From assembly GCF_055900595.2 (NCBI RefSeq), contig NZ_CM148325.1: a DNA stretch of 64,000 nucleotides; one strand, 5' to 3'. This document shows positions 23,491 to 23,655 of the stretch, one piece after another. Position 1 is the first letter of the stretch, and each line of letters starts with the position of its first letter. The notes beneath the pieces were generated by a model, which saw only the letters and a list, made by a program, of their open reading frames with translations, searched no databases and was not told the origin of the DNA. Made by a program: the position numbers and the translations under genes.

Positions 23491-23528
23491 GTTAAGGATT
23501 GTGGGCTTGCCCCTGGGCATATAAGAAC

Positions 23529-23566
23529 GTAGGTCGGATAAGCCGCCTTCGCGGCGCATCCGACAC
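23529..23566. repeat. REP (repetitive extragenic palindrome) unit in the nuoL-nuoM spacer
   Basis: GTAGGTCGGATAAGCCGCCTTCGCGGCGCATCCGACAC resembles the REP consensus (GTAGGCCGGATAAG...GCATCCGGC); nested inside a larger inverted repeat GGATTGTGG (from ~23497) / CCACAATCC (to ~23580). Confidence 0.6.
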
Positions 23567-23655
23567 TACAACCACAATCCGAAGAGAATTTTCTGTCGTG
23601 AGAATTCGTTGAAAATCCGGTCCTGACGGGACTTTTACAAGGAATAAAGATCGCC

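What the first reader, a model, noticed from the sequence alone, without database searches (positions are those of the whole stretch)
23491..23655. REP element nested in a larger inverted repeat inside the nuo operon (nuoL-nuoM spacer)
This is the only internal gap over 100 bp in the otherwise tightly packed, often overlapping nuoA-N operon. It holds a REP-like palindrome (23529-23566) flanked by a second inverted repeat GGATTGTGG / CCACAATCC. A structure like this could act as an mRNA stabiliser, a partial terminator, or a binding site (DNA gyrase, IHF), and might set differential expression of the distal nuoM and nuoN.
Basis: partly seen in the sequence, partly recalled or inferred. Interest (0 to 1): 0.25.

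Follow-up and report, generated by a model that had tools for sequence, protein, structure and literature searches.

The report
REP repeat relic in nuo operon
This is an ordinary copy of E. coli's commonest small palindromic repeat (REP), the surviving half of an old inverted repeat pair sitting between two respiratory complex I genes, and published K-12 data show no sign that it stops or differentially stabilises the operon's mRNA.

Summary
The window is E. coli. nuoL stops at 23490, nuoM starts at 23656, and the 165-nt spacer contains a genuine Y-like REP (23529-23569) flanked by a perfect 9-bp inverted repeat (23496-23504 / 23572-23580).

The REP core is a dispersed repeat, with a median of 34 places per genome. 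Its flanks are single-copy.

The outer repeat is not a separate device. It is the outermost part of an old inverted REP doublet:
- Citrobacter R56 still has the doublet as a 100-nt palindrome at the same site.
- E. coli kept the right REP, and the left one shrank to a 12-nt mini-hairpin.
- One Salmonella allele kept only the left REP.

The perfect outer stem occurs in only 323 of 5426 complete E. coli genomes. K-12-type genomes have a mismatch and a wobble instead. Another 724 genomes, including O157:H7, carry an unrelated 230-nt spacer with no REP. Other genera manage with spacers of 24-41 nt.

K-12 Term-seq lists no 3' end at the site, and mRNA lifetime is reported as about 4 min along most of nuo. 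There is no IHF consensus, terminator or promoter.

Verdict: a known kind of element, probably a near-neutral passenger that at most forms a weak exonuclease barrier. Low interest.

Side finds are a covarying hairpin just upstream of the nuoM ribosome-binding site and a spacer allele identical between E. coli and Salmonella.

The parts
23491..23655 (+). nuoL-nuoM intercistronic spacer (165 nt), transcribed as part of the nuoA-N mRNA
   Evidence: ORF list and sequence. RefSeq annotation of the identical sequence gives the same boundaries.
23496..23504 (+). 5' arm of the outer inverted repeat (GGATTGTGG). It is the left end of the ancestral REP-doublet palindrome.
   Evidence: 9/9 complementary. 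The left flank is single-copy in 4699 genomes. The arm aligns with the left arm of the Citrobacter R56, Klebsiella and Salmonella-250 modules.
23508..23528 (+). Relic of the left, inverted REP. It comprises the mini-hairpin TGCC-CCTG-GGCA (23508-23519) plus CATATAAGAAC, which corresponds to CCTAC + AAGACC linker of the intact doublet. About 20 nt have been deleted internally.
   Evidence: Alignments A3 and A4 against Citrobacter R56, C. amalonaticus and Salmonella-250. The hairpin appears in the MFE fold.
23529..23569 (+). REP (palindromic unit, Y-like) with GTAG on the sense strand. GTAG 23529-23532; lower stem 23533-23539 / 23558-23564; AA/GC mismatch bulge 23540-41 / 23556-57; upper stem 23542-23546 / 23551-23555; loop CTTC; CTAC 23566-23569 pairs with GTAG.
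   Evidence: REP core 23529-23566: -22.2 kcal/mol as RNA; -13.6 with DNA parameters. 28/36 identical to the Y unit of REP325. Median 34 places per genome. Weak Rfam naRNA4 (REP325 RNA) hit on both strands, E = 0.04.
23572..23580 (+). 3' arm of the outer inverted repeat (CCACAATCC). It is the right end of the ancestral doublet palindrome.
   Evidence: The window-type arm is found in only 323 genomes. K-12 has CCCCAGTCC. The same arm occurs in Citrobacter R56.
23586..23607 (+). Hairpin H-a of the conserved spacer core (GAATTT / GAATTC). It is followed by the invariant motif GAATTCGTTGAAAATC (23602-23617).
   Evidence: RNAalifold consensus. The six pairs are kept in all 12 sequences but show no covariation.
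23619..23633 (+). Hairpin H-b (GGTCC-TGACG-GGACT) just upstream of the nuoM Shine-Dalgarno sequence. It is conserved with compensatory changes across genera, and in many genera a ~120-nt repeat is inserted in its loop.
   Evidence: 93.8% of cells paired in this helix; three pairs with double changes; 9 cells, 0/500 shuffles. The insertions are visible.
23640..23658 (+). nuoM ribosome-binding region (AAGGAA 23640-23645) and start codon (ATG 23656-23658)
   Evidence: Sequence. The region is conserved in alignment A2. The ATG matches the annotated nuoM start.

Best explanation
The inner palindrome is an ordinary member of the E. coli REP (palindromic unit) family, of the Y-like type.

The 'larger inverted repeat' is the outermost pair of arms of an old inverted REP doublet, that is, a long REPIN- or BIME-like palindrome. 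This doublet lodged directly after the nuoL stop codon in an ancestor shared with Citrobacter, Klebsiella, Salmonella and Superficieibacter. In Escherichia the left REP decayed through an internal deletion to a 12-nt mini-hairpin, while the right REP survived. That explains why the outer arms sit asymmetrically around it.

In the nuo mRNA the module folds into a nested stem-loop of about -44 kcal/mol. Inferred: it is a near-neutral passenger. At most it slows 3'-to-5' exonucleases after downstream cleavage. It does not terminate transcription, and it does not set a large nuoA-L versus nuoM-N expression difference.

Shown here: family membership, origin from a doublet, the polymorphism, and the absence of a mapped 3' end in K-12. 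Inferred: the small size of any effect on RNA.
For: REP identity:
- A 5' GTAG, an imperfect palindrome with an AA/GC bulge, and an extragenic position. These are the features reported as required for recognition by TnpA-REP (PMC8266576).
- 28/36 identical to the Y unit and 26/36 to the Z1 unit of REP325, while Y and Z1 are 27/36 identical to each other.
- The 42-nt core hits 5425 of 5426 genomes with a median of 34 places per genome. Both flanks hit exactly one place per genome.

Doublet origin:
- The Citrobacter R56 module is a 100-nt palindrome, 78/101 identical to its own reverse complement (score 129 against 34.9 +/- 10.4 for shuffles). Its ends are GGATTGCGG / CCACAATCC.
- Alignment A4 shows a ~20-nt deletion in the E. 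coli left REP. Salmonella-250 keeps only the left REP. C. amalonaticus and R56 keep both.
- Every genus' minimum-energy fold closes the module with this outer stem.
- In the seven-sequence alignment A3, 87% of cells pair, against 32-49% when the partner columns are slid.

Dispensability:
- 724 of 5426 E. coli genomes have a REP-free 230-nt spacer.
- Spacers range from 24 to 289 nt across 82 loci, with 27-41 nt in Pluralibacter and Trabulsiella.
- Only 323 genomes keep the perfect outer stem.

No strong RNA effect:
- No terminator or promoter consensus.
- The K-12 Term-seq tables list 3' ends at 2391429, 2394829, 2399938, 2403873 and 2405086, but none within 2393000-2393199. The end at 2403873 lies about 4 nt after a hairpin in the nuoB-nuoC gap, so hairpin-protected ends in this same mRNA are detectable by the method.
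- Lifetime is about 4 min along most nuo segments (PMC4332155).
Against: [quoted passage not shown] A modest effect here is therefore plausible.
- The Term-seq lists are thresholded, and they come from K-12, which has the weaker outer stem. The perfect-stem allele of this window has not been assayed.
- 'Most segments' in the lifetime study leaves room for a local exception.
- The outer stem shows two apparent compensatory changes and several wobble-preserving changes across genera. This could mean selection for pairing rather than mere inheritance. The shuffle controls were not significant, however (33-69 of 500), and one of the two double changes rests on a row that MAFFT misaligned.
- Whether the outer arms belonged to the mobile unit or to the target site is not resolved.
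Confidence: 0.7

Rival explanations
1. Selected intercistronic mRNA stabiliser. The REP and outer stem block PNPase and RNase II, so the nuoA-L part of the message outlives nuoM-N, as in the classical malE-malF REP.
For: The structure is stable: -22 kcal/mol for the REP and -44 kcal/mol for the module, with z = -4.3 for the spacer. REPs in tandem gene pairs tend to favour upstream expression (preprint). Wobble-type changes in the sense-strand outer stem are tolerated.
Against: K-12 Term-seq records no accumulated 3' end at the REP. Lifetime is uniform at about 4 min along most of nuo. The REP is absent from 13% of E. coli genomes and from many genera. Complex I contains one copy each of NuoL, NuoM and NuoN (established structural knowledge), so no differential is needed.
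Confidence: 0.15
2. Partial transcription terminator or attenuator, Rho-dependent like REP325, that lowers nuoM-N transcription relative to nuoA-L.
For: A 165-nt untranslated stretch inside an operon could let Rho load. REP325 behaves this way (preprint).
Against: No hairpin-plus-U-tract is present. Neither the gene names nuoL/nuoM nor coordinates beginning 23930 or 23931 occur in the Rho-termination table or the 3'-end tables of Adams et al.. There is a single palindromic unit here, against twelve in REP325. The stoichiometric need for NuoM and NuoN also argues against it.
Confidence: 0.07
3. DNA-level protein-binding site (DNA gyrase, IHF, HU) that organises local supercoiling.
For: Some REP clusters (BIMEs) bind these proteins, according to established literature recalled from memory.
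Against: Those activities map to BIME architectures with two or more units and specific linker motifs. Here there is one intact unit. No WATCAANNNNTTR or WATCARNNNNTTR match was found, even with one mismatch. The 2026 preprint found no chromosome compaction by REP325.
Confidence: 0.03
4. The outer stem is an older, selected hairpin of the nuo mRNA, and REPs repeatedly colonised its loop. On this view it is not the end of the repeat doublet.
For: The stem is kept in Escherichia, Klebsiella, two Citrobacter and Superficieibacter around different inner sequences. The changes include U-A to C-G in Superficieibacter and, on my manual register, G-C to U-A in NCU1. A parallel case exists in the same spacer, where a ~120-nt repeat sits in the loop of hairpin H-b.
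Against: No sampled spacer has the stem without a REP or REP relic inside; the 76-nt 'empty' spacers lack both arms. In Citrobacter R56 the palindromic symmetry runs continuously from the REPs through the 7-nt linkers into the arms. The shuffle controls for covariation were not significant. 93% of REP-bearing E. coli genomes carry a degraded stem.
Confidence: 0.12
5. Translation-linked role. Structure close to the nuoL stop codon stalls terminating ribosomes and lowers NuoL through trans-translation, as reported for REPs within 15 nt of a stop codon (Liang, Rudd and Deutscher 2015, recalled from memory).
For: The outer 5' arm begins 5 nt after the stop codon.
Against: The REP itself begins 38 nt after the stop, outside the reported 15-nt limit. 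The outer stem is only 9 bp and is imperfect in most strains.
Confidence: 0.03

Closest known systems
E. coli REP / palindromic unit, Y type (for example the Y units of REP325, GTAGGCCGGATAAGGCGTTTACGCCGCATCCGGC)
   Same: It has a 5' GTAG, a lower stem (C/T)CGGAT / ATCCG(G/A), an AA/GC mismatch bulge, a length of about 35 nt, an extragenic location and tens of copies per genome.
   Different: The upper stem and loop differ (GCCGC-CTTC-GCGGC against GGCG-TTTA-CGCC). The lower stem carries a compensated C:G to T:A change. It is a lone unit rather than part of an alternating Y/Z array.
REPIN (inverted REP doublet forming one long hairpin; Bertels and Rainey 2011, PMC3116915) and BIME
   Same: The orthologous module in Citrobacter R56, NCU1 and C. 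amalonaticus is two inverted REPs joined head-to-head (CTAC-6 nt-GTAG) and folds as one long hairpin.
   Different: In E. coli the left REP is reduced to a relic. The flanks, including the outer arms, are single-copy in E. coli. The 6-nt head-to-head linker is unlike the 17-nt and 13-nt spacings measured between adjacent units in REP325. No IHF site is present.
Intercistronic REP regulators: malE-malF REP (Newbury et al. 1987, from memory) and REP325 in yjdM-yjdN (bioRxiv 10.64898/2026.03.23.713779)
   Same: A REP is co-transcribed between tandem genes of one operon, with GTAG on the sense strand.
   Different: Those cases show protected upstream transcripts and/or partial Rho-dependent termination. 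Here no 3' end is mapped and the lifetime is reported as uniform. There is one unit here, against twelve in REP325.
nuoG RNA motif (Rfam RF01748)
   Same: It is a conserved small hairpin in another intercistronic gap of the same operon, found in this window at 16480-16522 (50.3 bits). It is analogous to hairpin H-b at 23619-23633.
   Different: H-b and the GAATTCGTTGAAAATC core have no Rfam family. They are distinct from the REP that is the subject of this finding.

Membership tests
E. coli REP (palindromic unit; TnpA-REP group 2 substrate) | Conserved GTAG tetranucleotide at the 5' end of the palindrome | tested here: met
   GTAG lies at 23529-23532, directly before the stem. GTAG is reported as essential for TnpA-REP (PMC8266576).
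E. coli REP (palindromic unit; TnpA-REP group 2 substrate) | Imperfect palindrome of 30-40 nt with conserved mismatches forming a bulge in the stem | tested here: met
   The arms are 14 nt and 86% complementary. The fold shows 7 bp, an AA/GC internal loop and 5 bp. The bulge is in the same position as in the REP325 units.
E. coli REP (palindromic unit; TnpA-REP group 2 substrate) | Many dispersed copies in the same genome | tested here: met
   The 42-nt query gave 164,744 places in 5425 genomes, with a median of 34 per genome.
E. coli REP (palindromic unit; TnpA-REP group 2 substrate) | Extragenic location | tested here: met
   It lies between the nuoL stop (23490) and the nuoM start (23656).
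E. coli REP (palindromic unit; TnpA-REP group 2 substrate) | Sequence similarity to the Y/Z1/Z2 consensus | tested here: met
   28/36 to Y and 26/36 to Z1 of REP325, the same range as Y against Z1 (27/36). Z2 was not compared.
E. coli REP (palindromic unit; TnpA-REP group 2 substrate) | Binding and cleavage by TnpA-REP at a flanking CT dinucleotide | not testable with these tools
   A CT is present 3' of the stem at 23566-23567, but enzymatic activity cannot be assessed in silico.
BIME (BIME-1 / BIME-2) | Two or more palindromic units in alternating orientation separated by defined extra-unit motifs (an L motif with an IHF site, or an S motif) | tested here: not met
   There is one intact unit plus a 12-nt relic. 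No IHF consensus was found with one mismatch or fewer.
REPIN (REP doublet forming a hairpin) | Two inverted REPs separated by a short spacer that fold as one long hairpin | tested here: not met
   The E. coli module is only 54/91 identical to its own reverse complement (score 51 against 28.7 +/- 10.4). The orthologue in Citrobacter R56 meets the criterion (78/101, score 129 against 34.9 +/- 10.4).
REPIN (REP doublet forming a hairpin) | The doublet as a whole is the repeated (mobile) unit in the genome | tested here: not met
   In E. coli the flanks and outer arms occur once per genome.
Intrinsic (Rho-independent) terminator | GC-rich hairpin immediately followed by a U tract | tested here: not met
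   No terminator-like sites were found in 23300-23800. The sequence after the REP is ACACUACAACC, and after the outer stem it is GAAGAGAAUUUU.
REP-type intercistronic stabiliser / partial terminator (malEF and REP325 type) | Accumulation of upstream transcripts whose 3' ends map at the REP | tested here: not met
   The Adams et al. 2021 curated 3'-end tables (three conditions, files not truncated) hold no coordinate beginning 23930 or 23931 and no nuoM entry. This applies to the K-12 allele only, and the lists are thresholded.
REP-type intercistronic stabiliser / partial terminator (malEF and REP325 type) | Upstream gene expressed or stabilised more than the downstream gene in a REP-dependent way | not tested
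   Only an indirect statement was available: lifetime is about 4 min along most nuo segments. Per-gene data were not in the held supplements.
Translation-regulating REPs (Liang, Rudd and Deutscher 2015) | REP within 15 nt of the upstream stop codon | tested here: not met
   The REP starts 38 nt after the stop codon. Only the 9-bp outer arm starts at +6. The criterion itself is recalled from memory.

The most novel reading that the evidence does not exclude
The nuoL-nuoM spacer might be a conserved structured control region rather than junk.

Its 76-nt core consists of hairpin H-a, the invariant GAAUUCGUUGAAAAUC motif, and the covarying hairpin H-b that abuts the nuoM ribosome-binding site. This core could be an uncatalogued cis-acting RNA, comparable to the nuoG motif, that governs processing or translation of the distal antiporter-like subunits.

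On this reading the REP doublet and the ~120-nt repeat are recurrent insertions that tune the core differently in different strains. Whole-spacer alleles would then be exchanged between species under selection, as suggested by the 230-nt allele that is identical in E. coli and Salmonella.
Probability: 0.12. Interest if true: 0.45.

Novelty: already known. Interest (0 to 1): 0.15.

Why it matters
As a REP it matters little. REPs are the most abundant and longest-known repeats of E. coli, and this copy shows no evidence of a special role.

Its modest value is as a clean natural series for REP biology:
- One orthologous site shows an intact inverted doublet (Citrobacter), reciprocal loss of either half (Escherichia against one Salmonella allele), complete replacement (13% of E. 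coli) and absence (several genera).
- All of this lies inside an essential-stoichiometry operon, where any effect on expression should be measurable.
- These ready-made alleles allow a test of whether a single REP in an mRNA does anything.

The analysis also warns against reading a nested inverted repeat around a REP as a separate regulatory device.

Tried and rejected
- My first REP pattern had the wrong spacer length and found nothing. Regex scans then found this as the only REP in the 64-kb window and in 48 kb of K-12.
- I tried to read the K-12 REP annotation. The tool's copy of NC_000913.3 shows no repeat features, not even REP325. I therefore could not confirm whether this REP carries a catalogue number.
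- Rfam gave only a sub-threshold naRNA4 (REP325 RNA) hit for the REP and nothing for the 230-nt allele.
- The promoter/terminator scan found nothing, and the IHF consensus scan found nothing.
- I tested whether the ~120-nt repeat of the alternative allele is classical ERIC. It has 8-9 mismatches to the ERIC1R and ERIC2 primers, so I did not assign it to a family. A literature search for repeat family names was unproductive.
- A full-text search for nuoL + nuoM + 'repetitive extragenic palindromic' found no paper.
- Several sources held no usable supplement or were not held at all: Choe 2022, Li 2014, Conway 2014, Dar and Sorek 2018, Grünberger 2022, TERMITe 2025, Melamed 2016 and Chen 2015.
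- The REP preprint's held supplements mention nuo only for the terminator after nuoN.
- Rejected: the outer repeat as chance (P about 0.008, and it is conserved across genera).
- Rejected: the outer arms as ends of a currently multi-copy element in E. coli, because the flanks are single-copy.

Full report
**Observation.** The window is Escherichia coli. A 365-nt query across the site is 100% identical to strain FDAARGOS_497 and matches 5423 of 5426 complete genomes, always between annotated nuoL and nuoM. The ORF layout places nuoA-N on the + strand at 11623-26649, with the nuoL stop at 23490 and the nuoM ATG at 23656. This leaves a 165-nt spacer. One has arms 23533-23546 / 23551-23564 (14 nt, 86% complementary). 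The other has arms 23496-23504 / 23572-23580 (GGATTGTGG / CCACAATCC, 9/9). A perfect inverted repeat of at least 9 bp between the two REP flanks arose in 40 of 5000 shuffles. The spacer folds at -61.2 kcal/mol with z = -4.3. One detail is loose. The nuoB-nuoC gap is 93 nt by the longest ORF and 105 nt by the K-12 annotated start, so nuoL-nuoM is the largest gap but not necessarily the only one above 100 nt.

**The inner palindrome is a genuine REP.**
- It reads GTAG + GTCGGAT-AA-GCCGC-CTTC-GCGGC-GC-ATCCGAC. That is the 5' GTAG and the mismatched bulge described as the recognition determinants of E. coli REPs for TnpA-REP (PMC8266576).
- I extracted bona fide units from REP325 of K-12. Against these it is 28/36 identical to the Y unit and 26/36 to Z1, while Y and Z1 are 27/36 identical to each other. 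The lower stem carries a compensated C:G to T:A change.
- The 43 nt to its left and the 91 nt to its right each occur exactly once per genome.
- Rfam gives only a sub-threshold hit to naRNA4, the REP325-derived RNA.
- It is the only REP in the 64-kb window.

**The outer inverted repeat is the end of an old REP doublet.** I collected the nuoL-nuoM spacer from 82 loci, mostly species representatives of Enterobacterales.
- In Citrobacter R56 the same position holds GGATTGCGG-TTGTTTT-[inverted REP]-CTAC-AAGACC-GTAG-[REP]-ATTAAAA-CCACAATCC. This 100-nt module is 78/101 identical to its own reverse complement (score 129 against 34.9 +/- 10.4 for shuffles). The arms are simply the outermost part of that long palindrome.
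- Alignment A4 shows that C. amalonaticus also has both REPs. A 250-nt Salmonella allele keeps the left arm and the left REP only.
- E. coli and Klebsiella keep the right REP and both arms. In E. coli the left REP has a ~20-nt internal deletion, leaving the mini-hairpin TGCC-CCTG-GGCA (23508-23519). CATATAAGAAC follows it in place of CCTACAAGACC.
- This accounts for the asymmetry of the arms around the surviving REP (24 nt on the left, 2 nt on the right after CTAC).
- The stem is predicted to close the module in every genus. Across seven sequences, 87% of cells pair, against 32-49% for slid controls, and two pairs show double changes. The shuffle controls are not significant, and one row (NCU1) is misaligned by MAFFT. 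I therefore treat selection for pairing as unproven.
- Within E. coli the perfect stem is rare. Only 323 of 5426 genomes carry the window-type 3' arm. K-12-type genomes have CCCCAGTCC, which gives one mismatch and one G-U pair, and the module is still predicted to close.

**The rest of the spacer.** The 3' 76 nt (23580-23655) are homologous to the entire spacer of Enterobacter, Atlantibacter and some Citrobacter.
- RNAalifold finds two hairpins. H-a (23586-23591 / 23602-23607) is invariant. H-b (23619-23633) has three pairs with compensatory changes: 9 cells with double changes, a level that 0 of 500 shuffles reached. Across both helices 96.7% of cells pair.
- H-b ends 6 nt before the AAGGAA Shine-Dalgarno sequence.
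- In many genera a ~120-nt dispersed palindromic repeat sits in the loop of H-b.
- Rfam curates the nuoG motif in the nuoF-nuoG gap of this window (16480-16522). It has nothing for this core.

**Polymorphism and dispensability.**
- Exactly 4699 E. coli genomes have the REP-type spacer.
- 724 genomes, including O157:H7, have an unrelated 230-nt spacer with no REP and with the ~120-nt repeat.
- That allele is 230/230 identical to the spacer of S. enterica subsp. arizonae and of four further assemblies that encode the same NuoM protein as that strain. The flanking nuoL is about 84% identical and nuoM about 90%, except for the first 80 nt of nuoM (98.8%). This points to a short interspecies recombination tract.
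- Across genera the spacer ranges from 24 to 289 nt, with 27-41 nt in Pluralibacter and Trabulsiella.
- The REP is therefore not needed for nuo expression.

**Function.**
- No sigma-70-like promoter or intrinsic-terminator-like site is present. No IHF consensus is present even with one mismatch.
- From my own knowledge of the literature, IHF and gyrase binding belong to multi-unit BIMEs, and this element is not one.
- The curated K-12 3'-end tables of Adams et al. 2021 (three conditions, complete files) list ends in nuo at 2391429, 2394829, 2399938, 2403873 and 2405086. None falls in 2393000-2393199, where the REP lies, and neither the gene names nor those coordinates appear in the Rho-termination table.
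- The end at 2403873 maps about 4 nt after a hairpin in the nuoB-nuoC gap (window ~12822). Structure-protected ends inside this mRNA are therefore detected by the method.
- Chen et al. 2015 report a lifetime of about 4 min along most 300-nt segments of the nuo operon.
- On the other side, a 2026 preprint shows that REP325 is both a stabiliser and a partial Rho-dependent terminator. It also shows that REPs between tandem genes are on average associated with upstream-biased expression, with wide scatter.
- My reading is that the module folds in the mRNA (-44 kcal/mol) and may slow 3' exonucleases a little. It neither terminates transcription nor creates a sizeable nuoA-L versus nuoM-N differential. 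This is consistent with the 1:1:1 stoichiometry of NuoL, NuoM and NuoN in complex I (established structural knowledge).
- The perfect-stem allele of this window has not been assayed, so a somewhat larger effect in this strain is not excluded.

**Comparison and novelty.**
- The element meets every sequence-level criterion of an E. coli REP.
- It fails the criteria for a BIME, an intact REPIN, an intrinsic terminator and the stop-proximal translation-regulating REP class.
- It shows no mapped 3' ends of the kind expected for malEF- or REP325-type regulators.
- I could not confirm its catalogue number, because the available K-12 record lacks REP features. Nevertheless, a REP in E. coli K-12 and its relatives is a known kind of element in the best-catalogued genome.
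- Novelty is 'already known' and interest is low (0.15).
- The side observations deserve a note but were not the finding under review. These are reciprocal decay of a REP doublet across genera, a covarying hairpin next to the nuoM ribosome-binding site, and a spacer allele identical in E. coli and Salmonella.

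Noticed in passing
L002 601-830 (E. coli E28); L006 971-1200 (S. enterica arizonae); L088, L090, L091, L095, L096 1271-1500: 724 of 5426 complete E. coli genomes, including O157:H7, replace the whole REP spacer with an unrelated 230-nt spacer. It is 230/230 identical to the spacer in S. arizonae and in four of five further assemblies that encode the same NuoM (229/230 in the fifth). Flanking nuoL is about 84% identical and nuoM about 90%, but the first 80 nt of nuoM are 98.8% identical. This looks like a short interspecies recombination tract.
   Followed up: partly
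window 23619-23633 (H-b) and 23586-23617 (H-a + GAATTCGTTGAAAATC): A conserved 76-nt spacer core is shared by Escherichia, Klebsiella, Citrobacter, Enterobacter, Atlantibacter and Superficieibacter. Hairpin H-b, just upstream of the nuoM Shine-Dalgarno sequence, shows compensatory changes at three pairs (0 of 500 shuffles reach the observed value). No Rfam family matches it.
   Followed up: partly
L002 682-799; L086 301-418 (between pheM and pheS, strain 536); loop of H-b in L009, L010, L012, L027, L031, L033, L034, L039, L042, L044, L087: A ~120-nt dispersed palindromic repeat has a median of 4 places per E. coli genome at 77-80% identity. In many genera it is inserted in the loop of hairpin H-b. 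It has 8-9 mismatches to the ERIC1R and ERIC2 primers, so its family was not settled.
   Followed up: partly
L087, L089, L092-L094 1251-1500 (Salmonella-type assemblies): Salmonella is dimorphic at this site. A 250-nt allele keeps the left outer arm (GAGGATTGGG) and only the left, inverted REP of the doublet. This is the reciprocal of the E. coli state.
   Followed up: partly
window 12745-12849 (nuoB-nuoC gap), hairpin 12752-12818: This is the second-largest gap of the operon (93-105 nt). It folds into a long hairpin (-28.4 kcal/mol, z = -2.05). K-12 Term-seq lists an 'orphan' 3' end at 2403873, which maps to about window 12822, roughly 4 nt after the hairpin.
   Followed up: partly
window 16480-16522: A curated Rfam nuoG RNA motif (RF01748, 50.3 bits) lies in the 46-nt nuoF-nuoG gap.
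   Followed up: no
window 1-64000; L004 (K-12 2370000-2418000): The nuoL-nuoM REP is the only REP my patterns find in the 64-kb window and in 48 kb of K-12. From the 355 annotated REP elements one would expect roughly one cluster per 13 kb, so the region is REP-poor.
   Followed up: no
nuoL-nuoM spacers of loci L005-L084: Spacer length ranges from 24 to 289 nt across Enterobacterales, and every state (76-nt core only, one REP, two REPs, with or without the 120-nt repeat) occurs within the single genus Citrobacter. Three different ribosome-binding-site contexts occur...AAGGAAT..ATCGCC...TAAGGGACATAC..AGCT and ...TTAGGGACACAAATGCC.
   Followed up: partly
NC_000913.3 as held by the annotation tool (L001, L004, L085): The held K-12 record shows no repeat_region features, not even REP325. 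Absence of a REP annotation from this tool is therefore uninformative.
   Followed up: yes
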